A DNA stretch of 62,601 nucleotides, the filler included, from Kipferlia bialata (taxonomy: Eukaryota): assembly GCA_003568945.1 (NCBI GenBank). It is 2 parts of 2 records of this genome, joined end to end, with 100 filler letters (N's around TTAATTAATTAA, not from the genome) between each part and the next. Parts side by side here need not be neighbours in the genome. Positions count along the whole stretch, not along the records: positions 1 to 31,271 come from BDIP01000109.1; positions 31,372 to 62,601 come from BDIP01000110.1. One strand, given 5' to 3'. Below are positions 74 to 62,601 of the stretch, piece after piece (position 1 is the first letter of the stretch; each line of letters opens with the position of its first letter). A program made the position numbers and the translations under genes. Under the pieces are notes generated by a model that saw only the letters and a list, made by a program, of their open reading frames with translations, was not told the origin of the DNA and did not search any database.

Positions 74-157
74 GTGTGTCTCTGCCATGACCTCTGCCAT
101 GCAGTCCACACCGGTCAAGGGCATAGGGGTGGGAAAGAAGTTAGAGGTATATATACA

Positions 158-194
<37 letters not shown>

Positions 195-640
195 AAGTGT
201 ATATATAGTGGTGTATTTATATAGTCTATGTCATGCAGTCCACCCCGGTCAAGGGCATTGGGGTCGGGAAGAAGCTGGAGGTACGCATACTCTTGATGTG
301 TCAACATATTATGTGTGTGTGTATATTCTCTTTGGCTTAACTATATTTGTTCTCACCTTCCAGGTCGTCCCTCCCAACGTCTCCTTTGCAACAACCCTGG
401 ACGCCATGCAGGTATGAACACCAATTGCTACTCGATACAAGATACGCGGAGGTGTCATTGTTTCCATGCACTCCTCACATAGTGTATGATGAGATATTAC
501 AAAATGTCTTTCCCACTCACCCTCTAGCAGCGTCTGCGCCCCACCGTTGACCTCATGTCTCTATTGTGCTGTGCATCTCTACAGCACAGGCACTTGGATG
601 TGCTGGAGAGTGAGACAGGACTGCCAGTGTTAAGGTACAT

Positions 641-671
<31 letters not shown>

Positions 672-1615
672 ATATGTATATATATGTATGCACCTGGATG
701 TGCTGGAGAGTGAGACAGGACTGCCGGTGTTAAGGTATCTATATATAATAATAGATACTATATAGATATATGTGAGAAGAACATTTACCTTGATGTGCTG
801 GAGAGTGAGACTGGGCTACCAGTGCTGAGTATATACATGTACTAACGTACATACTAGATGAGGTGACCCCCACCCAGATGGTCCATTAGGGATATGTATA
901 TTCTTATATATTCACTACGTCATACATCACGTATACATATATATATATATATGAATATACTAGTATTCCTTACTTCAGGCTTGATGAGGTGACCCCCACC
1001 CAGATGGTCCATGAGGGAGGCCTGGACCACTTGGAGGCCATCAGGGAGTCAGTGGCAACAGCCAACGAGGAGGCAGAGGTATATACACGGCCTAGTAGTA
1101 TATACATATATACTTATATATATATGTGTGTATATGACTGTCTGAAGGCCATCAGGGAGTCAGTGGCCACAGCTAACGAGGAGGCAGAGGTACAGTATAT
1201 GTCTATATATATTATAGTATACATACATAGTGTGTGCATATTATTAGAAGGCTATTGGAGAGTCAGTGGCCACAGCCAACGAGGAGGCAGAGGTATATAC
1301 TATACACTTGTATATATGTATGTACTATTTTCTATCCCTGTCACTCACTCTAGGTCGAGACTAGACTTGATGCCTGTGAGAAGGCCATGAACTCATGGAC
1401 CAGTGACATATGCACAGACAGGTGTGTGTAAATAATAGTAATACACACACATATAAATTTGTATACCTGTATATATGCATACTAGTATATATGTATATAT
1501 CTCTGTTAAGGCCATGAACTCATGGACCAGTGACATATGTACAGACAGGTATGTGTATATATACATTGGTATATATATATGCATACATATATAATTATAT
1601 TCATTTGAGTATAAC

Positions 1616-1646
<31 letters not shown>

Positions 1647-3190
1647 CTATATATTATGGTCATGAACTCATGGACCAGTGACATATGCACAGACAGGTGT
1701 GTATGTTTACACTTGTATATATATGTATATATGCATTCTCACCCTCTAGGATAGTTGACATTGCCGCCAGAGGCTTTGGCCCATGGGACCTCAGTGATGG
1801 AGGGTTTGCTCTACCTGCACACTTCTTTGAGACACTCAGGTACATTGACCCACATATATACCATATGTACATATATCCTCAACCACATCTATTGTAACAT
1901 TTATGGACACGTATACTAATTCACATTCTGTCAACCTTTCTTTCTAATCTCCCAGGTCCATTGCCCTGTATGTCCAGAGGGACGTGGGGTCCAAGTATGC
2001 CGCACCCATCACCACAAGGTACGTGTGTATCTACACATGTATAGCCAATTTGATTAGTTAGTATATTGTTTTAAATCAGTATTGCAGGAGTATTCATTGT
2101 AGTATATATAGGTATCTATTCATTCAATCTCTATATTATATACATATCTCACTACTAATTCATATCTCACTAATTTGTAATAAGACTTACCCCCCAGGGC
2201 CAGGGCCGTTGAGAACACCATGCTCTGGGCCATGCACTCAGGGTCACTACTGAAGTGAGTATTCTACTCTATGTGGTAGTGTATACTACGCGATTAGTAT
2301 GTACTATACATATACATACATATATGTCTATGCTCTGGGCCATGCACTCAGGGTCACTGCTGAAGTGCGTAGGTGTAATATATAGTATCTGTATTGTATA
2401 ATACATTGCATATATGTACATATATGTCTAGAACACCATGCTCTGGGCCATGCACTCAGGGTCACTTCTGAAGTGAGTATACTACGCGATAGGGCATCAT
2501 CTATATCTTACGTGATTGCTATTGACCTTACTCCCAGGTGTGCCCAGCAGTATATCTCAGTGGGCAGCATCTTAATGACTAGCTCCAGTGCACACAGGGC
2601 AGTGTACTCTGGCGCTATCAACAAGGTGCCTACATGTATTCATATCGCCTATATTCTCTCTGGTACTTCTTGAGTAAGAGTATCAATATATACCCGTCGC
2701 GTAGTATCTCACCCCCAGTGGTACTCTCTGCGCAAGAGTGTGAAGCGGCTTGCCAAGAGCAGACTGCTGGACGTGCTGATGGACACGGACTTCAGCGAGA
2801 ACGTGCATGCCATTGTGGCATCACTCTCACCTACAATTCAGGTCTCAGTGTTCATATTCATGTTTGTCTCCCCCTATTGGTATTCCTATCCTCCAGTGTA
2901 TCTGTCTCTCTCTCTCTGTCTCTCTAACCATAGACCCTTAGCCACCGTAGCATGCACGACACCCTCCTAGCCTCCAGTGGAGATGGCACCGAGACATCAC
3001 TGAGGGGACTCATGACTATACCAGCCAAGGCTACCTATATTCAGGTACTCTCTCTCTCTCTCTCTATCACTACGTGCATATCATTCTTACCCACTAGGCC
3101 ATTCAAATGCGCCATGTCCCCAAGACCATTCTCTCTCTCTCTCTCTCTCTCTCATGTATAGGCGCCTCAAATGCGCCCTGTCTCCAAGAC

Positions 3191-3235
<45 letters not shown>

Positions 3236-3272
3236 ATGTATAGGCCCCCCAGATGCGCCCTGTCCCCAAGAC

Positions 3273-3305
<33 letters not shown>

Positions 3306-3517
3306 ATGTATAGGCCCCTCAAATGCGCCCTGTCCCCAAGACCCTTCTCTCTCTCTCTCCCCCTCTCTCTAATGTATAGCCCCCCCAGATGCGCCCTGTC
3401 GCAACGGCCCTAGTTTTTGAATATATGTATATATTTATATATATATATGTGTGTGTGTGTGTAATCATCTAACCTCTAGGCCCCCCAGATGCACCCTGTC
3501 CCCAAGACCCTAGTTTC

Positions 3518-3549
<32 letters not shown>

Positions 3550-6500
3550 GAATGTGTACTCTTACCTCTAGGCGCCTCAAATGCGCCCTGTCCCCAAGAC
3601 CCTGGTCTCTCAGTGCAAGGAGGGGGAGATGTATGTCCCCTATGCCCCAGTCACACTCTTCAACGTGGATGGGTTCATAGTCGCTAAGGTGCACACTATA
3701 TGTTGACTATATATACAGATATACCGTATATGTAAGGTTGTATTCTAGGTATTTAACACCACGTCCCTGGTCAGAAGAAGTCCTCCACCTCCCACTGGTA
3801 TCTGTCCTATTAGAAGTCTATATTAGTATACTCTATCTATAACACTAGATCCCAGGCCATAAGTCCCCGACCACCCTAACAATCACTCTCTCTCCATCTA
3901 TAATAGACATATATATGGTTTGTAATTCTTTGTATCTAACACCAGGTTCCCGGTGTAAAGAAGAAGAAGTCCCCCACAACCCTTGATGATACCCATATAT
4001 ATATGTTATCTAACTATGCTATAAGATCAATGGTAATACTTACACCAGGTTCCTGGCATTAAGAAGAAGAAGTCCCCTACAACCTAATAGCATCTATATA
4101 TGTCTAAGCACTCCATTGGATCTATATACTGTAAGTACTCTGTTACTGATTACAGGTCCCAGGCCAGAAGAAGAAGAAGTCCCCCACCACCCTGGAGGAG
4201 GGAGATGAGGAGGAGGAGGATGTGTGGGAGATCACGGGTGTGACATCAACAACGCGCATAGCGGCGCAGGTACCTACTCTTTGCCATTCTCTCAATGTAT
4301 ATATTGATATGCATACACATCCCACCCCAGGCTGACCTTCTGCGACTGAGGGACAAGGTGCCTCTGTCAGAGGTCAGAGGCCTCATTCCAAGGTATACAT
4401 GTGTATACATATATATATCTACAGTATGTAATACATGTAAACTGATACATATACTCTATATATACATATATATACCATATGTAATGTACTATGTGTATAT
4501 GGACAAGGTGCCCCTGTCAGAGGTCAGGGGCCTGATTCCAAGGTATTCATATAAATATATATATATATACATACAGTATGTAATATACCATATGTATACT
4601 GTTTGGTGCCTCTGTCAGAGGTCAGGGGCCTTATTCCTAGGTACAATAGTGTATACATATACTATTTAGAGCCTCCCTGTGTGACACAGTAGCACACGAC
4701 AATGATAGTACCATGTATTCACTTTCTCACAACTACTGAATTTCTATATACTCTCTACTTCTTACACTTAGGGATGTGCGTGCATCCATGCGTGACTCAG
4801 TTATACATACCACTGGCTCTGTTATTCACATATACTTACTACATATACATATATATATACTAATCCCTAGGGACGTGCGTCAGTCCATTCGCGACTCTGC
4901 CATCTCCGACCTATATGTATATATATATACTTGTACACTATACTAGTATACTAATCTCCAGAGATGTGCGTCAATCCATGCGCGAGGCAGTAGTGCATGA
5001 CACCGACTCTGCCATCTCTGACCTGGAGGCAGATGAGATGGATGCATTCTGGACAGGACACACCTATCACGCTAAGCATACAGGTATATATACACTATGT
5101 ATATAGTGTATATAGTATATATAGTGAATATATATGTATGTATATAGGATGACCTAGGGGCATATGAGATGGAGGGGTTCTGGACAGGGCATACCTATCA
5201 CGCAAAGCATATAGGTATATGTATATAGTGTGTATAGTATATATACTCTGTATGAGATGGAGGCAGATGAGACGGAGGCATTCTGGACAGGACATACATA
5301 CCATGCAAAGCATACAGGTATATGTATATAGTAATGTCTGTACCAGTTGCTGTACAAAAGTATCTGGTACTGACCCCAGCCCTCAACGTGTATGTGCATG
5401 ACCTGCTGAGGAGGGCCACAGTGTATATAATATATACATATAAATATATACATTACATATATATATACAGCATATTAACCCCAGCTCTGAATGTGTATGT
5501 GCATGACCTGCTGAGGAGGGCCACAGTGTCACCAGAGGGGGTTGCATCATTGAGACACGCTGTGAAGGCAAGTATTATGTGTATAGTGTATACTATAGTA
5601 TATGTGTATAGCACTATATACATGGTGTCACCTGAGGGGGTGGCATCACTCAGACACGCTGTGAAGGTATATATATATACATGATATAGTGTACAATAGT
5701 ATATATATATATGGGTATATTAGGATGTAGAGTGTCACCTGAGGGGGTGGCATCACTCAGACACGCAGTGAAGGTATATATATATATATATATACACTAT
5801 ATATATACTATATATATTCTAAGTATATACTATATATTGTCAGAAGTGTATAATTAGATGTACAGTGTCACTCGAGGGGGTGGCATCACTCAGACACGCA
5901 GTGAAGGTATATATATACATATTAGTATGCAAGTAAATTTAACTCTCGTTATGTATATATACATTTGTATGTATTTACTGACCCCCAGGACATCCTTGCC
6001 CAGATACAGCTACCCGAGTACAGACAGGACAGGGCAGACGACAGGTATATAGAAATACATGATATGTATTACTATTTGTATTGCAGTGTATAGTATGGTG
6101 TGGTATATAGGATATTGTATCAACTGCCCGAGTACAGACAGGACAGGGCAGATGACAGGTATATATATAGTATATGTTTAGTATATATATAGTATAGGAT
6201 AGTATGTATGTATGTTATACAATGGTAACAGGGCAGATGACTTGTGAGATACATGTAAATATGTCCCGTATCTTGGACATACTATATATACATACACGCC
6301 ACTAATACTATATGTACTAAAATTGTCCGAGTGCACTACTCGTGCCCTAGTATATACCCATCGATATATATATATACACTAACAATAGATACCTCTGCGA
6401 GGTCCTTGTACCCGAGTGGACTACTCATGCTCTCTCTTTCTTTCTCTCTCTCTCTCTCCAGATTCAAAACCTCTTCTCACCTTAGGTATCTCTGCGAGGT

Positions 6501-7231
6501 CCTTGTACCCGAGTGGACCACCCGTGTACTTGGCAGGGTACAGGGTGACACGGTGCATGTGCCTGTGCTCAGTGTGCCATGTGTCTCTAGATACATGTTC
6601 CAGTCAAAGGTAAACCGCGTAACTATAGGATCGCGTAACAATCTTTGTGGAGTAGTGAGTATATTTTCAGTGTGCCATGTATGTCAAGATACATGTTCCA
6701 GTCAAAGGTAAACCGCGTATTATGTGTAATCGTGTAGTTTCATATAAGAAATAGTATATATACTATATATACTGTACACTAACTGTAGGCCCTCTGCTAT
6801 TCCTCTATGGGTGTGCACCACAGACACATTGTCAATGACTGGCTGGGGGCTGTCAATGCGGCAGACTTAGGGTCAGGTATACATACATACATACATACAG
6901 TATATACAATACATAGAGAGAGAGTGTGTATATTCATATATATTAGACACATAGTCAATGACTGGCTGGGGGCAGTGAATGCTGCTGACCTGGGATCAGG
7001 TACATGTATTGGGGATGTGTTTTCCAGCCATGCTGGTATATTCAGTGTGTGTCTCACATCCAGACGCGTATATGAGTATACGTGTGAGTTTACAGTTAGA
7101 GATTATATATCTAACCTCAGCTGCTGACACCGACCAAGCATCATCCCTCCTCGAGAGTGACAGAAGTACAGACCAGTTTGGAGCATTATTGGCAAAGGGG
7201 GTCACGCTAGGTATGATAGTAATGTGTATAT

Positions 7232-7269
<38 letters not shown>

Positions 7270-7330
7270 GAGCACAGATCAGTTTGGGGCATTGTTGGCC
7301 AAGGGAGTGACACTAGGTATGATAGTAATG

Positions 7331-7371
<41 letters not shown>

Positions 7372-10300
7372 TGACAGAAGCACAGACCAGTTCGGGGCAT
7401 TGCTGGCAAAGGGGGTGACATTAGGTATGTGTATATAGATAACATGGTAAGTGTCTATATCGTATTACTTATACAGACAATGTAGCTGAAGAGTATTCTC
7501 CTGTGCACCTCTCACCCCCAGGTGTCTGTAGTATATTGTATATTATATAATGTATATTGTATATTGTATTGTATATAGTTCCAATGTTTATCAGTATACT
7601 GTAGTATATATGTATATATGTGTATATGTCCACTCACCCAGGTGTCTGCAATGCAGTGGGTGCAGGGATAGGCAGCACGGGCAGATACATGCAGCAGGTA
7701 CAGCATACTCTATATACACACACATACTTATGTATTAGTGTATATATATACATCTATATACTGGGATAAGCAGCACGGCAGATACATGCAGCAGGTACCA
7801 TAAACAGGATACTTATTTACCCATGTATATGTTGATTGATTAATGTATGTATATATATATATGTATATTGTTATACTGAGAGGCAGCACAGGCAGATATA
7901 TGCAGCAGGTACAGCATATGATACGATATACTTTACAATACATATGCGTGTGTATTGTTATAATGGCTTAGGCAGATACATGCAGCGGGTGCCACATACC
8001 CTTTAATATATATGTATTTAATATATATGTAATAGTGTACTAATTATTCATATGCATGGCCCTTTGTCATTGATTATATCCTCTCTATCTCTCTCTCTCT
8101 CCCCCCCCCCCTCCCATCCCCCATCCCAACTCCCCATCTATTACTATCCAATATCAGCTTTGTCATGAGTTAGGCATGGCCCCCTTTGTCATGAGTGCCA
8201 ACCAGCACCCAGACCCAAGGTGTGTATATACACATATACATGCATATATGCATATATACCTAGTGTGATAGTATCAATGGTATATATACATGGCCCCCTT
8301 TGTCATGATATCCAACCAGCACCCAGACCCAAGGTGCGTATGTATGGATATATATGTAAATACATGATTGCTGTGAAGTTTGTGTTTGTATATGCATATG
8401 TCCTGACGCACCAGAATGATGGCTTGCACCATCTCCGACCTCCTAATGTGTACTGCATAAGTATATATACTACTTATGCTATACCTTACGATACTATATA
8501 CGATCTGTCCTGTAACTTTAACCCCAGAATGATGGCCTGCACCATCTCCAACCTCATACTGGAGGGGCACCTGGTCTACCTGATAGGGGTGGAGGTGAGT
8601 ATAAATATGGATACTCCATCATACAGCCTAGCAATTCTAGGCTAGCGTCCTAGCGAATATATATATGAACCATATATTAAATGTATGGTCCTACGTATAT
8701 GCATGTATACATGAATATATCACTTGTCTCACCTCCAAAAAGCCTTCCCTCCTTGCACTTCTGATATATGTATATATATATATACATATCAATTATAGTA
8801 TTGACTATGTACTATACACATCTCGTGTCTAACCCCCAGAATGCTTCTCCCGAACTCTTGGCCCTCCTCGTTGACATCACCAACACACTCAGGCTGGGTG
8901 GGGAGTTCCCATACGCCAAGGGACCAACCATACCACACGGGGAGGTACATACATATACACTTACATCTATATATTCATACTTGTGGTATACTTTGATTCT
9001 ATATATCATTGGAATTCCCATGCGCCAAGGGACCCACGGTGCCACATGGAGAGGTATACTTCTATTCTTATACTCTCTTGCTCTCTTTACCAATTGTAAT
9101 TGTACTGACTCCTCACCCCCCAGTCCCCTGACTCTGATCTGTGTGTTGTCAGGAACCCCCTTGGTAAGAGTGCCCCCCACCCATCAGAGCACACAGTGGG
9201 GGCACTGGCATTCTACTTGCCAGGTAACAATATATAATATATAGTATATATATAGTATATATATATTGTATAAATAGTATATTAATGTACATATATACAT
9301 ATGTGAGTGCACCCCACCCATCAGAGCACACGGTGGGGGCACTGGCACTCTATCTGCCGGGTATGATATATGTTCATCTAGTTCATTACTATTGTTCCTA
9401 CGTTTCCATATCGTTTCTTACCCTCAGTCCTGGTGCCTGGTCCCTTTGTGATACCCGACCACCTGCCCAAGGACTGTGCCATCAGGTATTTATATACATA
9501 CACACATTCTAATGGGTATATGTTTCATATTAGAATGATATTTAGACACACATGTATACAAGCATATATATGTAGAGAGAGAGTAGTGGTATTAACCCCA
9601 GATACATTGATGTGCGTCGCCCCCCCGAGAAGCTGAGGTTCATACCCAAGTGCACTGGAAGGCCATGCCTGGCACTGAGGTATCAATATATATATATATG
9701 TATATATATATTGATACTATGTACACATATATACAATGTACATATGTACTATATACTGGGGGTTCATACCCAAGTGCACTGGAAGGCCATGCCTGGCACT
9801 GAGGTAGAGATACCTAGTATATGTAGAGTATAGAGCACATATATGTGTATATATACGTTCGTATCTCACTTCAGGACCACCTGTGCAGCAGCCAAGCCCC
9901 AGATATATATAAATATGTCTAGAAATAGTATTCATATGTATAGTCTATCCATATATATATATATATACATGTATACATATACCTTACTCTCCAGGACCAC
10001 TTATGGTAGTATACATATATATATATATGTGTATACATACGTTCGTATCTCATTTTAGGACCACCTATGCAGCAGCCAAGCCCCAGATATTCCTGGACCC
10101 CTCTGACGTGGCCATAGCAATGCGGATTAGGTATATGACAGCAGCAACCTTGTACTCACATTTTGTTATGGGTTCAGATACTCTATATCTACCAGTGTGG
10201 ATATCTGCATTGTCTGAGTCCTAGGGACGAGGGTGACTATGAGTTAGGAAGTGACGCTAATGCTGACTCATATATATATATATATACATATGCTGCAGTA

Positions 10301-13163: not shown

Positions 13164-13198
<35 letters not shown>

Positions 13199-48307: not shown

Positions 48308-48339
<32 letters not shown>

Positions 48340-49399
48340 GGAAGATGAGGGAGACAAAGAGGCTATACTCACCCTTGCTTGAGGTTCTTCTTGGGCATCT
48401 GAGCAGTGATACCCTCCTGACATCAGATATACATATATCAGATATCAGATAGGCATGAGAATAGAACAAGAGAAGTGAACGAGAGAGATACACAGGAGAA
48501 AGGTACAGGAGACAACTGCTAGTCCTCCGGCTCCTGTCAGTATGGACCACATGCATATCCCACCTGGAGCTTGGCGAACTGGGCCTCGAGCACCTGCAGC
48601 CGTGACTCGAAGAAGGTGTTGACCCTGTTACACTCAATCTCCACACAGGCCTCGAGGTCCTGGATCAGGGCCCTGGGGGTGAGTAGGGGGCATATACATT
48701 ATACAACGTGCCAGGTTAAAAGAGAGACAAGGATTGAAGCATGATATGAAACCACCAAAGTGAGTCGGTACCGGTACCGGTATCGGTACAACATACATCA
48801 CTCCCCCACCTTGAGTCCACCGTACTGTCTCTGCTCTGCCACTCTGTGGCCATCTGCTCGACCCTCTCATTGAGAGCACTGGGGTCAGACAGATGCGGGG
48901 GGGGGGGGGGGGGGGGGGGGGATGAAGGGGAGAGAAGTCAGTGCAGCTCCAGTAATCTTCTGTATCCACAACAACGCAAGTCAGGATATATACTATCAAA
49001 CAACTACACACAATACTGCACTTCCGTATACACTCACCCCTCTATCTGGCTCTCCTCCCTCTCTCTCTCCTCATCCAGCTTGGTCAGACAGGAGAAGCGA
49101 GATGCCTCCAGCACGTACCTGAATTTGAGTGAAGGTGTGAACTCACATATAACCACATGAGACACCAAATAGTTGGATATATCGATACTTGACATATGTC
49201 AGGTACACCAATGACACTTCACAATAGAATCCCCTACACAATACTGAGATGAGAGCGTTACGTACATATAATGCTTTAGCACTTGGTAATAGGCGCGGAC
49301 TCGCCGGGAGCTTACACTACCGGGGTCCAGAGACAGGAGAAACTCCACACCTGAAGTGAGCTGGTCTATGTACGAGAAATATGTATAGACGGGTACAGC

Positions 49400-49437
<38 letters not shown>

Positions 49438-49986
49438 ACCAACCTCCTTCTTTNNNNNNNNNNNNNNNNNNNNNNNNNNNNNNNNNNNNNNNNNNNNNNN
49501 NNNNNNNNNNNNNNNNNNNNNNNNNNNNNNNNNNNNNNNNNNNNNNNNNNNNNNNNNNNNNNNNNNNNNNNNNNNNNNNNNNNNNNNNNNNNNNNNNNNN
49601 NNNNNNNNNNNNNNNNNNNNNNNNNNNNNNNNNNNNNNNNNNNNNNNNNNNNNNNNNNNNNNNNNNNNNNNNNNNNNNNNNNNNNNNNNNNNNNNNNNNN
49701 NNNNNNNNNNNNNNNNNNNNNNNNNNNNNNNNNNNNNNNNNNNNNNNNNNNNNNNNNNNNNNNNNNNNNNNNNNNNNNNNNNNNNNNNNNNNNNNNNNNN
49801 NNNNNNNNNNNNNNNNNNNNNNNNNNNNNNNNNNNNNNNNNNNNNNNNNNNNNNNNNNNNNNNNNNNNNNNNNNNNNNNNNNNNNNNNNNNNNNNNNNNN
49901 NNNNNNNNNNNNNNNNNNNNNNNNNNNNNNNNNNNNNNNNNNNNNNNNNNNNNNNNNNNNNNNNNNNNNNNNNNNNNNNNNNNNGG

Positions 49987-50033
<47 letters not shown>

Positions 50034-50580: not shown

Positions 50581-50872
50581 CACTAATGTAGAGACGCAAG
50601 AGAGATGTGGAAGAGAGATGTGTTAGTATCTGATGGTCTAGGAAGAGCGTCACACAACAAACGGCCGTAGTACTTGTATACACTACGTTTGCGCTTACAC
50701 TACCATTTAGCACCCCAACACAATTCAATGAAGCCAATGATTTATATCAGGACCCCGCCGGCCTTGACCGATGTGGGGCCATTGTGGGGGTCGAGCCAAT
50801 GCTAGGACACATATGGTGTCCAAGTAAACAGCACGCCAGCCACTCCGTCACTCATACATAGGGTGTCAACAC

Positions 50873-50917
<45 letters not shown>

Positions 50918-50921
<4 letters not shown>

Positions 50922-53133
50922 GCCTCGGCCTGGACAAGGAGCTCTGCCAGGATGTCTGCGTATCTGGCCTGGAACAGCTTGATCTGCTTCTTGAAGGTGG
51001 GGGTCATCAGGTTGTCGGGGGTCCACTCCTCGGCCTCGAGGTGGATGCGCCTGGGCCTCTCGTAGCCCCACATGCTCAGGGCCTTGCCCTCCCTGGTGAT
51101 CTCGTCCAGCACCAGCTGCACGACAGCAGGGTCGGCACACAGGGCGGCGAAGTCGTCGTTGGCGGGAAGGCCGGCTGCGGCCACCCTAGCCTTGAGGACT
51201 GAGGGGTCAGGCACAATCACACCTACGGTGCAGGCGTTGGCCGGCTGGGCGTAGGTGAAGATCTGGGACACCACTGGGACAGCTCCCAGCCTATCCTCCA
51301 CAGACTCCAGGTTGACGTACTCGCCCTGCTGCAGCTTGATGATGCGGCCAGCCCTGGGGTGAGGGGTGTGGGTATGGGCCTATCATCTATATATCATAGA
51401 CACACGACTGACTATACACTGTGCCTCCGTACCTTCCGATGAGCTTGACGTCTCCCTCGGGGAACAGCTCTGCCATGTCTGATGTCCTGTACCAGCCCCC
51501 ATCGACAAGGGCCTCAGCGGTGGCCTCGGGGTTCTTGTAGTAGCCCTTCATCACGAAAGGTCCCTTGATCTGGAGCTCTCCCTGACATCAGAATACATAT
51601 GGGGCGGGAGAGAGAGATATGGGGTGCATGTACCTTGGGGTTGGATCCGTCGGTGGGGTTGGCCTCGTATCCGAGAGGGGGGTAGGACACAATCCTAGCC
51701 TCCACGTCCCTGAAGATGTGGCCCACACTGCGGTAGTCAGAGATCCAGGGCAGGGTGCCTGTGGAGAGGGCGCCTGTCTCAGAGGCTCCGTATCCGATGA
51801 AGAGCTCGGCACAGAAGGCAGCCCTGCAGAACTGACCGAGGTAGTTGGGCAGGAGGGCGGCACCGGCGGCAATCACAGTGACACGGCCACCAAGGAGGGC
51901 GGCGGTCTTGGAGAAGACGAGCTTGTCCCAGAACTTGTGCTGGCCCATGGCGATAGTGGAGCCGGGCTTGGCCTTGAGCATGGCCTTGACCTTGGACTTG
52001 AGGGCCATGTTGAACATCATCTGGGGGTAAGGGGGAGAGAGAGAGAGGCATATAAAAGGGGTAGTTCTCACCTTGGAGATGCCGCCCTTCTCGTTGATGC
52101 CGGTGGACACAGCGGCGTGGATCTTGGCAGCCACCCTGGGCACCATGCACATGAAGGTGGGCCTGAGGCACTGGGCGTCGGAGACCTGGGAGTGAGTGCG
52201 ATAAATGATACATAGATATATATGACAACATAGTAACACATCCACTCACCAGCCTGGAGGTGCTTCCGGTGAAGTATCCGATCCTGAATCCACACATGAT
52301 CATGGTCTGCTCAATGGCGTGGGAGAACACGTGACTAGGGGTGAGACATGCTAATAGAAGAGTGTGAGAACAGATGAGAGTGTACACAAGGGCACGTACG
52401 CTGTGGGCAGGTAGGACAGGAAGATGTGCTGGTGGGAGGGCACGTTCCTCTTGAGGGCCTCTGTGATGGGGAGTCTGCCGTGGAAGTTGTATGCGGCATA
52501 CAGGATGGAGCACTGCTTGAGCATGACGCCCTTGGGCACTCCGGTGGTGCCAGAGGTGTAGAAGATGGAGGCGTCGGTGTCAGAGGCAACGTCGGCATCG
52601 GCAGGGACGGGCAGGTTGGCTGTGGCCCTGATGATGTCATCAAGGGAGGACACGAGGATGGGGCCGTCCTGGTGCACGACTCCGGCTGCGGTCTCACCGT
52701 AGGGCATGAAGGCGGAGAGGTCGACCTCGAGGGCCTCCTCGTCCTCGGCCTCTGCCTCGGGGGAGGGGGACTTGGCCTTGGCCCTGGGCTCAGAGGCCAG
52801 GGTGTACAGGGACATGCGGGACTCAGAGACAGCGGGCATCACGGTGCCCTCGGGGAGGTCGGCAGGCACGTAGTACTCCTTGGCCTTGGCAAGCACCTGG
52901 GGTGAGACACTGCAATAGAAAGAGAGAGAGAAGAGGGGGGGGGGGGGCTATACACCCGCATACCTTGGCCTCGTCGAACTCCTGGAGGCAGATGACAGCC
53001 CTCAGGTTGGTGCAGAGGTGGGCGGATCCAAGGAGGCGGGGGAGGTAGTGCAGGTCACACAGCACAACCTGTGCGCCAGAGTGGTTGAGCACGTAGCGGA
53101 CGAGCTCGGGTCCGAGGGTGGAGTAGAGGGGGA
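50918..53133 (-). CDS. Long-chain fatty acyl-CoA ligase (ACSL/LACS-type, AMP-binding); N-terminus not found
   Basis: VPLYSTLGPELVRYVLNHS, P-loop IFYTSGTTGVPKGVML, LSYLPTAHVF, PTFMCMVPRV, IGYGASET, GELQIKGPFVMKGYYKNPEAT, KLQQGEYV and LMTPTFK. Seven exons with short introns. Confidence 0.92.
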
Positions 53134-53612
53134 CTGGGTGTCAGACAGAAGAGAGAGACAGGGAGAGAGAGAATGGGGAGAGAGGGGAGGGGGGGGGGGG
53201 GGGGGGGGAGGCTCAGGCAAGGGGGGGTATGTACATACATCGGGTGTGTGTATACAATACTACACCATACCTGGCAGCAGAGGTCTGACATGCACACTGT
53301 GAGTGTAACTCATGTCTGTCTCTATCTCTCTCTCTCTCTCACTTTCAAGCCTTCCCTATCCCTCCGTTACTCTTCAGTAGCCTTCTGGAGGTTTCAATCA
53401 CTACGTAGTAGCTTCCCCCTCTCTCACCCCGCGTATCAGAGGCCTTATGGGTGCTCGGAGGTAGGGCTAAGAGACAGGTGTCAAATTGTATGATTTTTCA
53501 GAATTGAACTTACAAAAAGTCTAAAAACACGACACCGAATCTATAAAACTGTATGTCTATTTATCCTTGAAAAGACACCTTCCTTGCAGTGTAGTGGAAG
53601 CACAGTAGATCT

Positions 53613-53734
53613 ATGGACGAAGTTGCTGCGGCACGTGCTGCAGCCAAGGCAGAGCACAAGAGGCTATGTGCCCAGGGGGATGAGCTGAAGATTGAGACAC
53701 CCACTGGGCTCATATCAGGCACCCTGGTAGACAG

Positions 53735-53776
<42 letters not shown>

Positions 53777-55156
53777 CCTTCTCCCCTTGCCTGCCTTGTC
53801 TATATTGCAAGTGGGCAGTATTTATAGGGTCAAGTCTTGTATCCACTCGCTCTTTTTCATTTTCTTTCTCTCTCTGCCCCCCCCACCTCAGTGTGTGCAT
53901 ATATATATATGAGTGTCAATATCTTGAATGGACTCCTCTCTCAACTCTCTCTCTCTCTCTCTGCCTGGCAAGGGTGCAGATACCAACCCCTCTCAACACA
54001 TCTATCTACATATATTTACATATACTTATGTATATCCTATGGATATTCATCACTCACAATAGGTCTGACAAGGGTACAGACACCGACAACACCCCAGGGT
54101 CCAGAGGAGACATTGCCATCATGATACACGGGCTGGTATGTGCAGGGTATTGTCCATAGAACAGTTCATTGTATATATAGTGTATATATGTATAGAGAGA
54201 GGGAGAGAGAGTCTTTCCACTCTACATCTCCTGGGGTTACCAAGATATATATTTGTTTTCCTCTGACCTCACAGGGCTCCCACAGCAACATGCGCTTCTT
54301 TCCTTCTTTCCATTATGTATGTATGTATATTATATTATAAACTAATGTACTATCTGCAATTATAGATTTTTCACCCTGGGCTCCCACCGCAACTTACGCT
54401 TCTTCCCATGAACATACTAATACCATATGCCACAGTCATGTATACACATGAATATACCCTGTGTGTTCTTATGCTTATCCCAGGGCTCCCACCGCAATAT
54501 GCGCTTCTTCCCCATGCTGGCAGACACCCTGCCGGCATCGTCATACAGGTGTGTATGTATATATGCATACTAATACTGTGTGTGTGTCTGATATACGGAA
54601 ATATGACCTATACTAACCCCAGGTTTGACATCCAGGGCCATGGCAAGAGCACAGGGGAATTCAGGTGAGATACATATAGATATATATGTATATATACATA
54701 CAGATATATATATATATATCTGTAGGTTTGCATATGTATCTATATATCCCTCTGTCAAGGATATGGCCAGAGCACAGGGGAGTTCAGGTGAAGCTAGCTA
54801 CTGTAACACCTCTTTCTCTCGCTCTCTGGACAGGAACGTTCAGAGGTTGCCGGGACTATAACGTATACCCCACCTTCTCTCTCTCTCTGTCTCTCTCTCT
54901 CTCTCTAGACCCTTACTGTCAGCCTCAGTTACAAGCGTGATGTGGAGACCATGGAGTACATCCATCCTCTATCTCTCTCTCTCTCTCTCTCTCCCCCTCT
55001 CTAGACCCTTAATATCAGCCTCAGTTACAAGCGTGATGTGCAGACCATGGAGTACATCCACACCTTCTCTCTCTCTCTCTCTCTCTCCCCCTCTCTAGAC
55101 CCTTATTGTCAGCCTCAGTTACAAGCGTGATGTGGAGACTATGGAGTACATCCATA

Positions 55157-55190
<34 letters not shown>

Positions 55191-55246
55191 AGACCCTTAT
55201 TGTCAGCCTTAGTTATAAGCGTGATGTGCAGGTCATGGAGTACATC

Positions 55247-55290
<44 letters not shown>

Positions 55291-57973
55291 AGACCCTTAT
55301 ATTCAGTCTTAGCTACAAGCGTGATGTGGAGACCTTGGAGTACATCATCACACACCTCGAGGGGATGGGGTTCAGTGTTACCGATCTCATAGGTATATGG
55401 TTCATATATACATATATACTATATACTAATGAGTATCATCACACACCTCGAGGGGATGGGGTTCAACGTGACTGATCTCATAGGTAAATATATATATACA
55501 CATACACACATATATACTAATTTATGTATTACATATATATCTACTATATGTACTATATATATATACTATATACATATGGTTACATCATCAGACACCTCGA
55601 GGGGATGGGGTTCAACGTGACTGATCTCATAGGTATATATAGTGTATATTCTGATATGTATATACTTACCTTCTATGGGTAAATTAATATATAGTGCATA
55701 TATATATATGTAGTTACTATCTCTATAGGTCATTCTAACGGTGCCAACATTGTGCTGAGCATGCACCAGTCGCCTAACCATATGTATAGATATAGATATA
55801 GATATAGATATAGATATAGATATAGATAGATAGATATACTGGTAAAGAGGATGTAGCTCTCATATTTACATATATACGGGTATATATGCTTACAGGTAGG
55901 CCACTCCAAGGGTGCCAACATTGTGCTGAGCATGCACCAGTCACCCCTGCCATCACTCAGACACCTGTTCATATGCTCAAGCAGGTACATAGGCACATAC
56001 ATAGTATATATACAAATATATATGAGTATAGGTACATATATGTATTAATATGTATATATAGTATCGCCCCTGCCCTCACTCAGACACTTGTTCATATGCC
56101 CCAGCAGGTACATAGACATATATATGCACATATAGATTGTGATCGATACTGCCCCCCTCCCCTCTCCCCTAATCCACACTGATATATCCCTGTCGTATTC
56201 CCGATATATGTACAAGTATCTTCTTAATTCCTCTCTCTCTCTCTATGTTCCTCTGTCTCTCCCTCTCACCCCTGTCCTCACCCTCCCAGGCACGACATGC
56301 TCGGCAGACCCAAAGGTATGTATATCAATATATATATATATATATAGGGAGAGACAAAGGTATGTGGATGTAAGTTGGGGCACTCTATCGCGTTTCTCTC
56401 TTTCCCTATTTGCGTCTCTCTTGATTCATCGCTAACAGTATATCGTGCCTTCTTTCAGTATACATATAGTATGAGAAATAGAATATTTCAGAATACATAT
56501 AGTACAATAACCTTGATATAGTATAAGTATTGTATAGTATCTCTCTCACTTTCCAGGCCGATACTCCGATGCCCAGCGCAAGACTCTGGCTGAGACTGGA
56601 TGCTTCAGACACACATTCAGCAAGTATGTATATATACTGTATAGTGTATACATATATATATATACAGTATATTCCAAATAGTAATTTCTTTGAGATTGAA
56701 AGCTTCACTGCAAGTACGCATGTATTGACTACAGTACTTCCTATACATATACCACTGATATCTTGACCCCCAGGTACACTGGAGAGGTCACTGTGCGTGG
56801 GTGTGACATGAAGGAGAGGGAGCAGGTATCCATATGCCATGCCCAATTCTATATACCACACTCTATTCAGAGCATATTATATAGTGTATGTGGGTGTGAC
56901 ATTGTCAGTGTCTGGACTCCTAGATTGACATGTATACTTCTTCTTGACTGGTCCTGACTGCTCTTGACTTCTATTGACCCCTTCCCAGATTGACATGGAC
57001 CGTGACCACCTTGCCAAGTGGGGGGAGAGAGAGGCCAGGAGGGCACAGGAGGGATACACTCCCTTAAAGGCCACAGTGGTCCATGGGAGGTATATATTCT
57101 TTAGTAATACTATTCATATATATGTATATCATATGACATATATATGTGAGAGAGAATATCAGTATCGCTTGAGGCCACTATCGTGCACGGGGAGGTACAC
57201 TCATACATTCACATACTCTCGTATGTATCCTATATAGTGTAGTCCATTCTTCTATATACTTGCTCCTTTGTATATTTCTATTTCCAGCTCTAGATACCTA
57301 TTTTCTGTATTACTTATACTTAGAGCTGATACACTCATCCTCTATGCAGATGCAGAGTATATCAGTATCAGTATCACTTTCTGTATACATACATTATTGA
57401 TATCCTTATATATATTTTACTCACATTAGGGCCGATACCGTCATCCCCTATGTGGATGCTGAGCGCATCAGAGACGGACTGGAGAGGGTGGGGGTGGCAT
57501 GTGCGCTCTTCCCACTAGGTACTTGTATACTACTCTATGCTATGCTATACAATACTATACTATACTATACTATACTATACTATGTATATACTGTATTCTA
57601 TGGAGAGGGTGGGGGGTGGCATGTGCCCTATATCCACTAGGTAAGGATTGCATATCGCATATATACTGGACAAATACTAGGAATATATGAAGTGTGTACA
57701 TTGTATATATGTCTTTATTGTATATATGTCTATACATCCGTAGATGGACATGTATATGTACTATATATGTATTTCCGAAGCAGTCTAACCACAGGCCCTC
57801 CCAAGGCAGATGGAGTGGAGGGGGAGAGGGAGGGAGAGATTGAGACCCCCCAGATAGGGGAGGTAGAGGGAGAGAGAGAGGAGGAGGAGGAGGAGAAGCC
57901 CTGTGACCACATGTTCGCAGGGTACGAGAAGGCAGTGGCTGACATTGTAATGGGGGTTATCAACGCTAGATAG
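53613..57973 (+). CDS. Alpha/beta-hydrolase fold protein (serine esterase-like)
   Basis: Spliced product has IMIHGLGSH, RFDIQGHGKSTGEF, nucleophile GHSKG (about 55900-55915), acid HGRADTVIP and His CDHMF. TAG at 57971-57973. Confidence 0.88.
54900..55306 (+). repeat. Four tandem units of about 95 bp: (CT)n + branch + AG + about 40 nt of the next exon
   Basis: Echo starts at 54923, 55019, 55113 and 55207. The full exon (SLSYKRDVETLEYIITHLEG...) starts at 55307. Confidence 0.92.
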
Positions 57974-58348
57974 GAAGCTAACGCGAAATACAATTGCTCA
58001 CGCGAGATTTATGGTTAGCAGTGGCTGACATAGTCATGGGGGTCATCAACGCGAGATAGATAGACAACGTGACATAGAGAGTTGATAACACACACGATGT
58101 ATGTGCCACTATTGACCTTGAATGTTAGCAATCACAACTGAACTGAACTGAACATGGTGACCAAGTATCTATTTCACAACTCTTCCAATCATGAGCAGTT
58201 GTCCTGCAAAGCCCTTGAAAGATAGTGCAACGCCTAGTCCCCCTAGTCTCTCTAGCGTAGGCCGAATCCCTCGCTGTCACTCTATCTTTGTCTAGCTAGA
58301 TATAACACTAGGGCCTAATAGTCCTTTGACATACAAGTGAGGAAACCT

Positions 58349-60334
58349 CTAACGGAGACCGAATCCCTCGCTGTTGCCAATGGCAATCAGAAGCTGCTCA
58401 CGAAGAACATCCTTGGAGCTGGGGTGAGTACATATAGACAGAAAGAGAGAGACAATGAGACCTGAGGCTAATACATATACGTGTATATATGGTGAGAGTG
58501 GAAGAGACAGACACACGCATACCTGTAGTCCGGTATCATGAGGGCACTGAAGCACACGTGGGAGGTGGGGAGTCTGGGATGAGAGGATGGTACCTAAAAC
58601 ACAGACAATATATATAGCTATACTACCATCTATAGCTGTAGGTCACATACATAGGTAGTAGACATGCATGTACATGGTACATATAACTTGTCAATGCCCA
58701 TACCTGTCATCCTCCACCCCGTTCCTGACAATGATGAACTGCTACATTAATATATAAATATATATATGTACATATATGTGATGGTATATTCTATGTCTAC
58801 TATACCTGTCATCCTCCACCCCGTTCCTGACAATGATGAACTGCTGCTTGGAGAGACCGCCTGACTGTCAGAATACAATATATATATATGGAAGATATAT
58901 ATATATATGGAAGAAAAGTGACTGTATGAACTGCCGCTCAGAGAGACCACCTGACTGTAAGAATACATAACCAAACTATATAGAGCGACAATACAAAGAC
59001 ATAAAACAATGGTGACTGTAAGAACTGATACACTATGTCATACCTACTGGTGCCCTGTCACTCCCGCACACACCAACCAACCAATCAATCAATAGACAAA
59101 TGAATCAATCAATCAATCAATCAATCAATCCATTAATGATGATTACTCACCTACTGGTGCCCTGTCACTACCACACACAAACTTGAGCAGTTGTTTCTGC
59201 TGCTCTGGGGTCATGTCATGCACAATCTCCCAGAACCACAGGACTGAGGTGAGTATATATTATATAGACATAATGATATACATTATATTATGAAAGATGT
59301 ATATATATGAATATGAATATATAGGTCATGTCATGCACAATCTCCCAGAACCACAGGACTGAGGTCAGTATATGCGGTTATATTATATATATATACTTAT
59401 AGGAGAAGTGGAGAAGTGAGGTTAAGTATATAGAAACAGATATATAGATATATATGTATCAAATGCTGTGGTCATGTCATGCACAATCTCCCAGAACCAC
59501 AGGACTGGAATGAGTATATATTACATATACATACAGATATATAATATAATGTGAAAGATGTATATACATGTATATGTATATGGGTCATGTACAATGTCAT
59601 GCACAAACTCCCAGAACCACAGGACTGGAATGAGTATATACGGCTATAATAAATAATTATAATCATATCAAGAGTGGAGAAGTGAGGAAAAGTATATAGA
59701 AACAGATCTATAGATAATGAATTCAGAGGTCATGCACAATCTCCCAGAACCACACGACTGAGGGTGAAAGTACGGTTAATCACCAAAACAATATAGAATT
59801 ACACAAAACATTCAATGTATTTCATTGTATGTAAAAGACAAGGACCATGCACATTCATACCATACCTATCTTGTGGCTGGCATATGTTTCTAGAGTATAC
59901 ATCTACTATATGTCATACCTATCTTGTGGCTGATGTGGTACCCACCATCAAATATAGTTATATATAGGTATACATACAGGTATATATAGTACATACAGTA
60001 CACACAATAGTATACAATACCTATCTTGTGGCTGATGTGGTACCCTCCATCAAATAACCATATATATGCATATATACATATGTATAGGTATACAGTACAT
60101 ATAGCATATGTATACCATGTATCCTACCTATCTTGTGGCTGATGTGGTACCCTCCATCATACTTGGTGACACGCTCCAGGGCCTGGGGAGTGAGACTACG
60201 AAATGAATATATTTATATATATAATGATAATGTGCTATTAAACACACATGAACATATAACCATACCTTGAAGTCGAGTGTCTGTTCTCCACACACTATCA
60301 GCTCCATCTCCTCGGGTCTGAAGAAGGGGGGGCC
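58349..60334 (-). CDS. HECT-domain E3 ubiquitin ligase, C-terminal part only (UBE3A/HERC-like)
   Basis: Exons splice to [106 protein letters not shown]. The catalytic Cys and terminal Phe are retained. Confidence 0.92.
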
Positions 60335-60430
60335 CTATGAGTTAGACATATATATATAGAATATATAGTGTATACACACATGTATATATATATATATATA
60401 TATCAGCTCCATCTCCTCGGGTCTGAAGAA

Positions 60431-60475
<45 letters not shown>

Positions 60476-60858
60476 TAGGGTAACACGAGGCAAAGAGATG
60501 GTGAACTGGCAACGACTATGCAGACGGGTGAGGAGTGATGCACAAATAGGTATAAATGCAGAGTGAGACTGACTAAATACTGCCAAATACAACTTGTAGT
60601 GTGAGAGTATAGCTGGGAAATATTGACTAATATCCCGGTAAAAATACTCTTATGCACAAAATTCACCACTTACAGAGCACGGTAGTTGAATACTTGACCG
60701 AGACAGCGGTAGAGACCAAAAGACACTATGTTGGGAAGACCACTTAACCATCACCCACTGCCACTGCAATACAACACCCATCCCGCTCTCACTCCCTCCT
60801 CTCTCTGTATATCCCCCTCCCCCTTCCACCCCCCTCTGTGACCGATAGCAGAACTCAC

Positions 60859-60996
60859 CTCCTGCCTTGCGGCTGTCTGCTCAATCTCTCTGTTGTAGTC
60901 TGGCTGCACTGCCTGGACCTGTCTCAGTCTCTGCCGCAGCTGGGCATTCCTGGCCTGCTGGTACTGCAGGTCTTCGTGGGAGCCAGACCCAGACAT
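60859..60996 (-). CDS. Probable first exon (MSGSGSHEDLQYQQARNAQLRQRL...ARQE); parent gene unclear
   Basis: ATG-initiated, coiled-coil-like and ends at a phase-0 GTGAG donor. It is in frame with the HECT exon at 60334 but separated from it by a long G run. Confidence 0.5.
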
Positions 60997-61137
60997 AGCT
61001 AGTAGTGCCTGGGGGTGGTAGAGAGGGGGAGAATGTTCAGCAATTCAGAGAGTCCGACGAGACTTTGATCGGAGAGAGAGTTGAATCTCGACCGGCGTTG
61101 AAACCATACCACTTCCCAAGGCCCACCTAGAGCTGAG

Positions 61138-62601
61138 ATGCTCGCTCTGATCGTACTTGCGGTGGCTGCTCTGGTGTATGGAGCCCCCATCCACATTCTG
61201 CACACCACAGATGGTGAGTGGGAGTGGGTATGGGTCCCTCTATGCTTGTCGTTGCCCTTTCCTCACCCCCAGTGCACTCCTGGGTGGACGCACACCCTCA
61301 CAACTCAACCCTGAACGCTGATCTTGGCTCCTTTGTGTCCTTCTCCGAGAGGTTCAGGACCATGGCCCTGGGAGACGGGGATGACGTGCTCATGTTTGAC
61401 ACAGGCGACTTCATCCAGGTATGCCTTCATACTCAGTAACCTACAGGGGTAGGGGGTGTTAGCGTAATATATGGGTAGGTATGGTGGTGGTGGAAGGGCA
61501 GGGTTGGATATGGTGCATGACAGACCACAACGTATACATAGTGTTCCTGACCACATCTGTTTGTCCAGTACCCCATGGCTCTCATGTGCCTCCCCCCCGC
61601 CCTCTCTCTCTCCCTCTCTTTCCCCTTACCCCCTAGGGCACTGGCTTCAGCGATGCCTCTGAGATTGTTGGTCAGTATGCCTATGATGTCACCACCAACC
61701 TGGCCTATGATGCACTGACAGCTGGGAACCACGACATATCGGTGAGTGGGGCGGATATACATGGGTAGATACTACTAACCAGTATGCTGGAAGATATGGG
61801 TCGTTAACAGTGAGCGTAGTTGGGTGGGTATCCGCCTAGTGGTTACGGTATGAGTACTGTCACCATCCCATTTCTGCCCCCCATGCATCTATCCTGTCAT
61901 ATGGATACTTACCACCTGGTTTATAGAGATATATATAGATTGTAAAAGTATATACCTACTATGCCGCTCTCCCTCACCCCCAAGTTGATGACAGTGTGGA
62001 CAACAAGGATATATACATATGCATAGTGTATATATTGCGTGTCTATATATAGTATACCGAATCATATGTATATACCCTTATACCAGGTTGATGACAGTGT
62101 GGACTACATGGTGGACACCTTCATCCCCCACTGGGGCAACACATTTGTCACAACAAACATCTACAAGGTATGATGCATGGATATATTGGATGTATGTACT
62201 AATGCATATATATCCAGGTTATCTATAGATTCTGACATTCGGCACAACAAACATCTACAAGGTACACTGAGTAGATAGATAGATAAGATATATATATGTA
62301 CTAATATAGTACATATATATATACATATGGTAGTGCCCATATGGCCCGGATATATGTACTGACATTCGTCAGATCAAACATCTACAAGGCACACTGAGTG
62401 GAAATGTGGGCTACATGTATTATTCACACTAATTCTACTTAATATATATGTCTCTACCCATCAGGATGGCGACTACCTGGGTGTGCCCTACCCAGACACA
62501 TATCTCTCCCTCTCTCTCTAATTTTTCTCTAATCTGCTACATATACATCCAACCATCAGGATGGCGACTACCTGGGTGTGCCCTACACTGTGATATTCTC
62601 T
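61138..62601 (+). CDS. Secreted calcineurin-like metallophosphoesterase / 5'-nucleotidase (YHR202W-like), 3' incomplete
   Basis: Signal-like MLALIVLAVAALVYGA, then ILHTTDVHSW, ADLGSFVSF, MFDTGDFIQGTGFSDA, YDALTAGNHDI and HWGNTFVTTNI. These contain the DxH, GD and GNHD metallophosphatase motifs. Confidence 0.85.

What the first reader, a model, noticed from the sequence alone, without database searches (positions are those of the whole stretch)
74..62601. 'Exon echoes': untranslatable half-exon copies in introns that diverge as if they were coding
SEEN: most exons of the dynein-like gene, and many in the hydrolase, HECT, XPR1-like and nucleotidase genes, are flanked by 1-6 partial copies of themselves. 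Polarity is consistent: downstream copies are exon 3' end + GT with the 5' part replaced by (TA)n-type sequence, and upstream copies are branch + AG + exon 5' start with no donor. Differences from the real exon are overwhelmingly silent in the cases I aligned: 6/6 at 232-280, 8/8 at 6945-6999, 7/7 at 24290-24340, 4/4 at 58018-58059. INFERENCE: after a plain tandem duplication the dead copy should mutate at all codon positions, so only about 40% of differences would be silent. These pieces therefore appear to have diverged while under protein-level selection. Candidate mechanisms: (a) recurrent capture of junction fragments from divergent alleles or haplotypes by unequal recombination; (b) exon-end turnover, where recombination between exon and echo swaps the echo in as the functional end; (c) programmed DNA deletion or RNA template jumping between the direct repeats. 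I know of no description of this architecture, but I cannot search the literature.
Basis: partly seen in the sequence, partly recalled or inferred. Interest (0 to 1): 0.95.

Follow-up and report, generated by a model that had tools for sequence, protein, structure and literature searches.

The report
Dead half-exon copies record divergent alleles
In the free-living protist Kipferlia bialata, many exons are flanked by short dead copies of their own ends that differ from the working exon mostly at silent positions, likely because they were left and refreshed by recombination with very different alleles, which would make each gene a record of hidden sex and extreme diversity.

Summary
Real. In 165 modelled exons I found 158 partial copies in adjacent introns (control: 4 in five times more intron DNA), none in the wrong polarity; 66 of 90 exons of the dynein-like gene carry them. 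The copies are dead: the RNA contig skips them, they hold stops and frameshifts, and their amino-acid changes hit invariant residues as often as variable ones. So the silent excess was most likely inherited from other working copies, not kept by present selection. Unalignable intron flanks, opposite silent/replacement gradients and simulations (within-haplotype exchange never went below omega 0.4) point to unequal crossover with strongly diverged alleles; no second allele was seen, so this step is inferred. The architecture is known as amphioxus 'mirages', and this scan noted it before in sea urchin DNA, where the silent share was the ordinary 40%. New here: a protist, very high density, unrelated flanks and the large silent excess. 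New variant of a known kind.

The parts
74..31009 (+). Divergent dynein-heavy-chain-like gene, 90 exons in the window (incomplete at both ends), 121 echo hits in its introns; 66 of 90 exons have at least one
   Evidence: 2,617 aa without a stop; 52.5% identical over 2,621 columns to K. bialata KIPB_000659 and 42.7% to KIPB_000784; DHC_N2 hit on the paralog is below Pfam's cut-off; 8 exon pieces confirmed in RNA contig
690..1292 (+). Five echoes (two downstream of exon 528-634, one upstream and two downstream of exon 979-1078) inside one DNA contig with no differences
   Evidence: (X1 record 2, 696-1410, depth 425)
3098..3518 (+). Six upstream echoes (branch+AG+35-40 nt) of exon 3572-3688, mosaic silent variants, shared far breakpoint
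   Evidence: RNA contig uses 3572-3688 with 0 other letters
3749..4084 (+). Four upstream echoes of exon 4156-4269, skipped in the mRNA
   Evidence: RNA contig joins 3686 to 4154 (record 3951 to 3952)
5625..5906 (+). Three downstream echoes ending in GT of exon 5485-5567, whose own donor is GC
9761..9803 (+). 43-nt echo identical to its exon end but with an unrelated intron flank after 3 nt
31272..31371 (.). N-linker joining two separate contigs; both contigs carry echoes
   Evidence: the protein record's contig length 31,230 equals 31372-62601
42828..49118 (-). XPR1/SYG1-like gene, echo-poor (2 of 21 exons; short acceptor copies at about 45954-46218 and a donor copy near 43430)
   Evidence: EXS domain
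50920..53133 (-). Long-chain acyl-CoA synthetase, short introns, no echoes (0 of 7 exons); names the organism
   Evidence: exon 100% identical to KIPB_000875, Kipferlia bialata; AMP-binding
53609..57973 (+). Alpha/beta-hydrolase-like gene (GHSKG motif, label recalled), 15 echoes incl. four upstream copies at 54923-55246
58018..58059 (+). Echo of the hydrolase's last 13 codons plus stop codon, 4 silent differences, likeness ends at the stop; no splice site involved
58349..60439 (-). 3' part of a HECT ubiquitin-ligase gene, 12 echo hits incl. four upstream copies at 59324-59757
   Evidence: HECT domain
61273..62601 (+).

Best explanation
The echoes are dead, unspliced copies of exon ends whose large silent excess was likely inherited from strongly diverged working alleles through unequal crossover. 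Steps: (1, shown) units of about 108 bp, half an exon plus an intron-sized spacer, sit in tandem at coding boundaries and are skipped in the mRNA. (2, inferred) A unit first arises by local duplication across one boundary; copies holding both splice sites would be purged, which gives the strict polarity, and the spliceosome would have to pair acceptor and donor across the exon (exon definition) to ignore intact single sites. (3, inferred) Alleles in the population are so diverged that introns do not align and exons and echoes are the only islands of homology; a crossover between an echo on one chromosome and the working exon on another gives the echo the splice-site-proximal part and the intron flank of a different allele. 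(4, shown) After that the copy mutates blindly, about 0.03 changes per site so far. The silent excess (about 0.22 per silent site above twice the replacement rate) would then measure how different the recombining alleles were.
For: Dead now: replacements per site 0.032 at residues invariant in two paralogs, 0.026 at variable ones (26/374 vs 27/447 codons, p 0.67); 8 of 11 indels shift the frame; 3-4 stops; splice dinucleotides kept in 125 of 137, as a 0.03-0.045 dead time predicts; RNA contig X2 record 9 has 0 other letters in 8 listed pieces, which cover 94 copy-versus-exon differences. Silent changes on the echo branches too: 58 silent to 38 replacement private changes, omega 0.22 where 1 is expected, 30 arrays. 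Two clocks: silent and replacement rates are uncorrelated across 107 dynein echoes (rho -0.09; single-clock simulations reach this in at most 1.7%). GC3 0.663 in exons, 0.664 in echoes, introns 36% GC. Gradient: near half pS 0.32, pN 0.025; far half 0.195, 0.040 (p 8e-7, 0.017), not produced by the detector. Flanks: about 0.5 identity over the first 10 nt against 0.33 for unrelated introns, no link to echo divergence (rho 0.04), unrelated even beside most of the 20 echoes with 0-1 differences; far breakpoints shared within arrays (37 of 62 pairs within 3 nt, 18% at random). Likeness stops at a stop codon as well as at splice sites. Simulation: within-haplotype exchange gives omega above 0.5 at any diversity; between-haplotype exchange lowers it as allelic silent diversity rises, 0.23 at 0.22. 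Precedent: in Schizophyllum commune silent diversity is 0.20 and crossovers fall preferentially in exons (abstracts of PMC4576712, PMC4209137). Metamonads lack NHEJ and lean on homologous recombination (passages of PMC8516963).
Against: No second allele was seen: over 200-5085 the X1 contigs show one other letter only, in a motif shared with paralogs (contigs drop variants and repeats were skipped). The species' published assembly size matches its k-mer size, so that isolate is not highly heterozygous (PMC5874029, section 11). No other strain was found. The diversity needed, 0.2 or more and near 0.39 in a two-part split of the gradient, equals or beats the eukaryote record. No simulation reached the observed omega 0.12 (lowest 0.20-0.23), and at equilibrium most runs with exchange between haplotypes gave more silent divergence at the far end, the reverse of the data. 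Outer echoes are not significantly more decayed than inner ones (p 0.28) and upstream and downstream breakpoints are not complementary (7 of 24, p 0.27-0.66). The narrow period (median 108, quartiles 98-126) and minimum spacer (24 nt; 5th percentile 43) are unexplained.
Confidence: 0.55

Rival explanations
1. One or a few past hybridisations (or a collapsed allopolyploid) brought together two or three diverged genomes; repair of breaks on the homeolog, with overshoot into its unalignable intron and end-joining, left the displaced half-exons, and heterozygosity was then lost. Same molecular logic, but no standing hyperdiversity or ongoing sex.
For: Explains a homozygous-looking isolate, similar dead time for most echoes (0.027-0.031 for single, first and second copies) and regional patchiness (1-31 kb and 54-62 kb rich, 32-53 kb poor).
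Against: Arrays of up to six different versions; 7 of 140 four-fold sites in arrays show three letters (my rough expectation for two haplotypes plus dead-time mutation is 2-3); echo-echo pS 0.22 is near echo-exon 0.27.
Confidence: 0.2
2. Echoes are used at a low rate or in another life stage (somatic deletion between direct repeats, template jumping, cryptic splicing), so selection acts on them as protein-coding sequence.
For: Omega 0.22 on echo branches; replacements slightly enriched for conservative changes (43 of 106 against 29.5%, p 0.01); contigs cannot show rare molecules; reads were laid on 4.9 kb only.
Against: Replacements hit invariant residues at full rate; frameshifts and stops; no partner splice site; RNA contig has exon letters only and DNA depth is even; single clock rejected.
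Confidence: 0.08
3. Exon-end turnover inside one lineage: deletions between exon and echo swap the echo in, and this filters it.
For: Direct repeats 100 bp apart are natural substrates; some echoes are identical to the exon over long tracts.
Against: Within-haplotype exchange erases silent and replacement differences alike: omega 0.53-0.72. A deletion removes the echo, so arrays that survive feel no selection (inference).
Confidence: 0.06
4. Ordinary mirages: neutral tandem duplicates whose silent share only reflects selection on the working exon.
For: Same architecture as amphioxus; the far tips of echoes come close to this pattern (omega about 0.36 in the two-part split); an earlier scan note reached this verdict for a sea urchin gene (43 of 107 silent, unchecked).
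Against: 71% silent against 36-41%; echo-private omega 0.22; flanks unrelated beside identical echoes.
Confidence: 0.03
5. Assembly or culture artefact: exons of different haplotypes or strains stitched in tandem through TA repeats.
For: Short-read, fragmented assembly with N gaps in the window; no long reads checked; X1 may be the source reads.
Against: A second assembly of X1 reproduces 715-nt and 241-nt paths through spacer-echo junctions with 0 differences at full depth; junctions of TA spacer to mid-exon cannot come from intact alleles; stops, frameshifts and strict polarity.
Confidence: 0.03

Closest known systems
Amphioxus 'mirages' (Adh3, globins BflGb6/9, troponin C, PGBD5): PMC3087553 and PMC3902484, passages read; the original Adh3 paper was not held
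   Same: Tandem partial copies of an exon-intron boundary, at 5' or 3' boundaries, often with AG/GT, 3-6 units, no effect on normal splicing, thought to change by unequal crossover.
   Different: Here a fornicate protist; 66 of 90 exons of one gene; the intron part of the unit is nearly unalignable (amphioxus units 81-100% identical); also at stop codons; 71% silent differences. The passages read mention no silent bias.
Exon-centred crossover in hypervariable Schizophyllum commune (PMC4209137, PMC4576712; abstracts)
   Same: Crossovers confined to conserved exons when alleles differ greatly; silent diversity 0.20.
   Different: No half-exon arrays mentioned in the abstracts; diversity there is measured, here inferred.
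Mutually exclusive duplicated exons (Dscam type; recalled)
   Same: Tandem exon-derived copies with low dN/dS.
   Different: Those have both splice sites and enter mRNA; echoes have one site, are skipped and carry frameshifts.
Silent cassettes and pseudogene donors (chicken pseudo-V, Borrelia vls) and ciliate pointers/paralogous MDSs (recalled)
   Same: Truncated copies beside a working gene that exchange sequence with it.
   Different: No sign of programmed use or diversification; replacements are blind to constraint; housekeeping genes.
Intron gain by tandem duplication of AG/GT sites (Rogers model, as cited in PMC3087553)
   Same: Local duplication across a splice site.
   Different: No new intron results in the exons checked against RNA; the copy stays inside the old intron.

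Membership tests
Mirage (exon-intron boundary minisatellite) | Tandem partial copies spanning one exon-intron boundary, at either boundary | tested here: met
   131 boundary-type hits, 0 reverse polarity
Mirage (exon-intron boundary minisatellite) | Copies keep AG or GT yet normal splicing is unaffected | tested here: met
   125 of 137 keep the site; RNA contig skips them in 200-5085
Mirage (exon-intron boundary minisatellite) | Whole unit, intron part included, is alike between copies (81-100% in BflGb6) | tested here: not met
   Flank identity about 0.5 for 10 nt, then near background; 21% of 125 flanks beat 95% of controls
Mirage (exon-intron boundary minisatellite) | Copy number varies between haplotypes or cells | not testable with these tools
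   One sample, contigs only
Neutral dead tandem duplicate | About 40% silent differences; omega 1 on the copy's branch; one clock | tested here: not met
   71%; 0.22; rho -0.09
Mutually exclusive / alternative exon | Both splice sites, open frame, presence in mRNA | tested here: not met
   Partner site in 5 of 137; 8 of 11 indels shift frame; absent from RNA contig
Programmed DNA deletion between direct repeats | Deleted forms in DNA and echo letters in mRNA | tested here: inconclusive
   Even depth and exon-only letters on 4.9 kb, but contigs drop rare forms and joints at repeats were skipped
Sequence under present protein-level selection | Replacements avoid conserved residues | tested here: not met
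   0.032 at invariant against 0.026 at variable columns
Allele-derived copy (concerted evolution in a hyperdiverse population) | Working alleles differ by 0.2 or more at silent sites and share variants with echoes | not testable with these tools
   No second strain or allele found
Recursive-splicing ratchet point | AG|GT with an upstream branch point, used stepwise | not tested
   83 of 90 exons end in AG, so downstream echoes end AG|GT; intermediates need raw RNA reads; would not explain codon bias

The most novel reading that the evidence does not exclude
Kipferlia bialata carries, gene after gene, a stacked fossil record of recombination between alleles that differ at 20-40% of silent sites: each echo is the end of another working allele plus its intron start. 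One genome would then prove cryptic sex and record-level diversity in a free-living fornicate, and show exon-definition splicing in a short-intron protist.
Probability: 0.4. Interest if true: 0.88.

Novelty: new variant of a known kind. Interest (0 to 1): 0.72.

Why it matters
The silent excess cannot come from duplication or exchange inside one lineage, so it points to recombination between very different haplotypes in a group where sex has been hard to show (recalled). If it holds genome-wide, thousands of echoes would let allele divergence, crossover position and time since capture be read from a single genome. Independently of mechanism, hundreds of intact but ignored donors and acceptors 100 bp from real ones make a natural test of exon definition in a metamonad with introns near 90 nt. 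Practically, echoes mislead gene finders: my own ab initio run gave 178 exons where 87 curated ones lie.

Tried and rejected
No whole genome was held, so no genome-wide count. Reads could be laid on 200-5085 only, contigs not raw reads; X2 is only guessed to be RNA by its record, though its contig is spliced. Metagenome scan with an acyl-CoA synthetase exon gave 2 weak unrelated loci, not used. Protein searches found only K. bialata paralogs and distant relatives, no second strain. Pfam, PDB and Atlas on single exons of the large gene found nothing useful; its label rests on paralogs. Rejected: complementary upstream and downstream breakpoints from one cut site (7 of 24, not significant), co-occurrence of the two kinds on one exon or intron (odds 1.0 and 1.1), age order within arrays; AT drift as a marker of dead-state change (25 vs 24, no power); echo residues matching paralogs (6 of 77, chance 9%); exon-only acceleration (exon-private 0.08, echo-private 0.10 silent changes per site). 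One search was a noisy 3-replicate run; (16 replicates) is the one relied on. One XPR1 exon start was off by 2 nt (found); XPR1 hits were not in the codon counts. Literature: 9 searches found no description of these copies in Kipferlia and none of a silent excess in mirages; PMC5874029 has no match for 'duplicat' and its 'repeat' passages concern other things. The original mirage paper and the Gao and Lynch internal-duplication paper were not held, and no supplements were read; either could mention silent bias.
Full report
Source and models. The window is two contigs joined by an N-linker at 31272-31371. An exon of the acyl-CoA synthetase gene is 100% identical to KIPB_000875 of Kipferlia bialata, on a contig of 31,230 bp, the length of 31372-62601. 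No whole genome was held. I built eight gene models, 165 exons, with a small trained gene finder and hand curation. The large gene has 90 exons, 89 GT and 1 GC donor, and reads 2,617 aa without a stop. It aligns over 2,621 columns at 52.5% to the 4,938-aa paralog KIPB_000659 and at 42.7% to the 5,100-aa KIPB_000784, which its source calls a dynein heavy chain linker protein; the DHC_N2 hit is under Pfam's cut-off. HECT, EXS and AMP-binding were confirmed on single exons; the hydrolase and nucleotidase labels were not.

The observation. Each exon was compared without gaps to both flanking introns: 158 hits in 79,461 bp against 4 in 387,632 bp of other introns; 79 downstream 3' ends, 52 upstream 5' ends, 27 internal pieces, none in the wrong polarity. 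Density is uneven: 66/90, 5/6, 6/12 and 2/4 exons in the dynein-like, HECT, hydrolase and nucleotidase genes, but 2/21, 3/17, 2/8 and 0/7 between 32 and 53 kb. Units repeat every 108 bp (quartiles 98-126), spacer median 72. Copies also occur at stop codons (58018-58059), where likeness ends at the stop, so the boundary that matters is coding versus non-coding.

Real DNA, skipped in RNA. Two runs hold the sequence, X1 (DNA) and X2 (guessed RNA), one sample. On 200-5085, X1 contigs cross spacer-echo junctions with no differences at depth 383-454, the same as unrelated contigs; X2 record 9 (7,769 nt) is spliced, has 0 other letters in the 8 pieces listed and joins 3686 to 4154 past four upstream echoes. 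Five of these pieces cover 94 echo-versus-exon differences. Limits: contigs, 4.9 kb, repeats partly skipped, most pieces not listed, and X1 may be the window's own source.

The silent excess. After leaving out 6 hits in three echo-poor genes and 15 unanchored pieces, 137 echoes give 344 silent of 485 differences, pS 0.27, pN 0.038, omega 0.12-0.14; a dead duplicate should give 38-44%, and simulated ones gave 36-40% through the same detector. Downstream copies are 80% silent, upstream 60%. In 30 arrays, changes private to one echo are 58 silent to 38 replacement (omega 0.22) and echo-echo omega is 0.34, so the excess is not only the exon's own drift.

Dead now. Replacements fall on residues invariant in both paralogs at 0.032 per site and on variable ones at 0.026. 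Eight of 11 indels shift the frame; there are 3-4 stops; splice dinucleotides survive at 91%, as that small load predicts. A mild excess of conservative changes (43 of 106, p 0.01) is the only sign the other way. The echoes therefore hold two kinds of change: a small blind load of about 0.03, and a silent load of 0.27 of which only about 0.06 is explained by that dead time. The two are uncorrelated across echoes, which single-clock simulations reproduce in at most 1.7% of runs, and echo GC3 equals exon GC3 (0.664, 0.663) although introns are 36% GC.

How the silent load got there. Intron flanks are barely related, even beside echoes identical to the exon over 30-43 nt, while far breakpoints are shared within arrays. 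Silent divergence is highest next to the splice site and replacement divergence highest at the far tip (0.32/0.025 against 0.195/0.040); single echoes show mosaic tracts. This is what a crossover between an echo and the working exon of another allele would leave: old far tip, fresh near part, foreign flank (inference). Forward simulation supports the need for other alleles: exchange within a haplotype kept omega at 0.53-0.72 whatever the diversity, exchange between haplotypes lowered it to 0.23 when allelic silent diversity was 0.22. It did not reach 0.12, and the equilibrium gradient was mostly reversed, so the arrays would have to be younger than the allelic split, and donors perhaps 0.39 apart. 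Such diversity matches or exceeds the record of 0.20 in Schizophyllum commune, where crossovers do prefer exons (abstracts). Metamonads lack NHEJ and rely on homologous recombination (passages of PMC8516963). Against: no second allele in X1, a published assembly size equal to the k-mer size (PMC5874029, sections 7 and 11), and no other strain to test. A past hybrid or collapsed polyploid is the main rival; three-letter sites (7 of 140) lean mildly to more than two haplotypes.

Splicing. Intact donors nearer to the next acceptor, and intact branch-plus-AG sites met first, are ignored in the mRNA. That is hard to get from intron definition or first-come scanning and likely needs exon definition (inference).

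What is known. The echoes work like mirages in layout, but fail the whole-unit-likeness feature and add a silent excess that the passages do not mention; the scan's sea urchin case sat at 43 of 107, the neutral level (unchecked note). Nine searches found no account in Kipferlia; the original mirage paper could not be read. Verdict: observation confirmed, new variant of a known kind, mechanism inferred at 0.55, interest 0.72.

Noticed in passing
window 5567-5569: The only GC donor of the large gene is followed by three echoes that end in canonical GT, yet the model needs the GC site; no RNA check here.
   Followed up: partly
window 1957-2012 and 2197-2237, X1 record 5 and X2: Paralogous DNA contigs match this motif at about 87%; one (depth 622) lacks the intron between the two exons.
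   Followed up: no
proteins P0006-P0008, P0010, P0011: K. bialata has a family of about 5,000-aa, very divergent dynein-heavy-chain-like proteins, 39-53% identical to the window's gene, with only a weak DHC_N2 hit.
   Followed up: partly
window 32500-53200 against 1-31200 and 53600-62601: Echo density is regional and follows intron TA content (0.09-0.14 in poor genes, 0.13-0.16 in rich ones).
   Followed up: partly
all arrays: Repeat period is narrow (median 108 bp) and independent of exon length (rho -0.09); spacers are never under 24 nt. Unexplained.
   Followed up: partly
window 31272-31371: N-linker with a 12-nt palindromic spacer joining two contigs; further N gaps at 29408-29603 and 49454-49984.
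   Followed up: yes
window 54868-55306 and 3048-3360: Upstream echo arrays with long (CT)n spacers in place of (TA)n; units here are alike over their whole length (87-89%), as in classical mirages.
   Followed up: no
window 31372-32450 and 37950-39200: Stretches without modelled genes or TA repeats, one with a short tandem repeat at 31440-31480; not examined.
   Followed up: no
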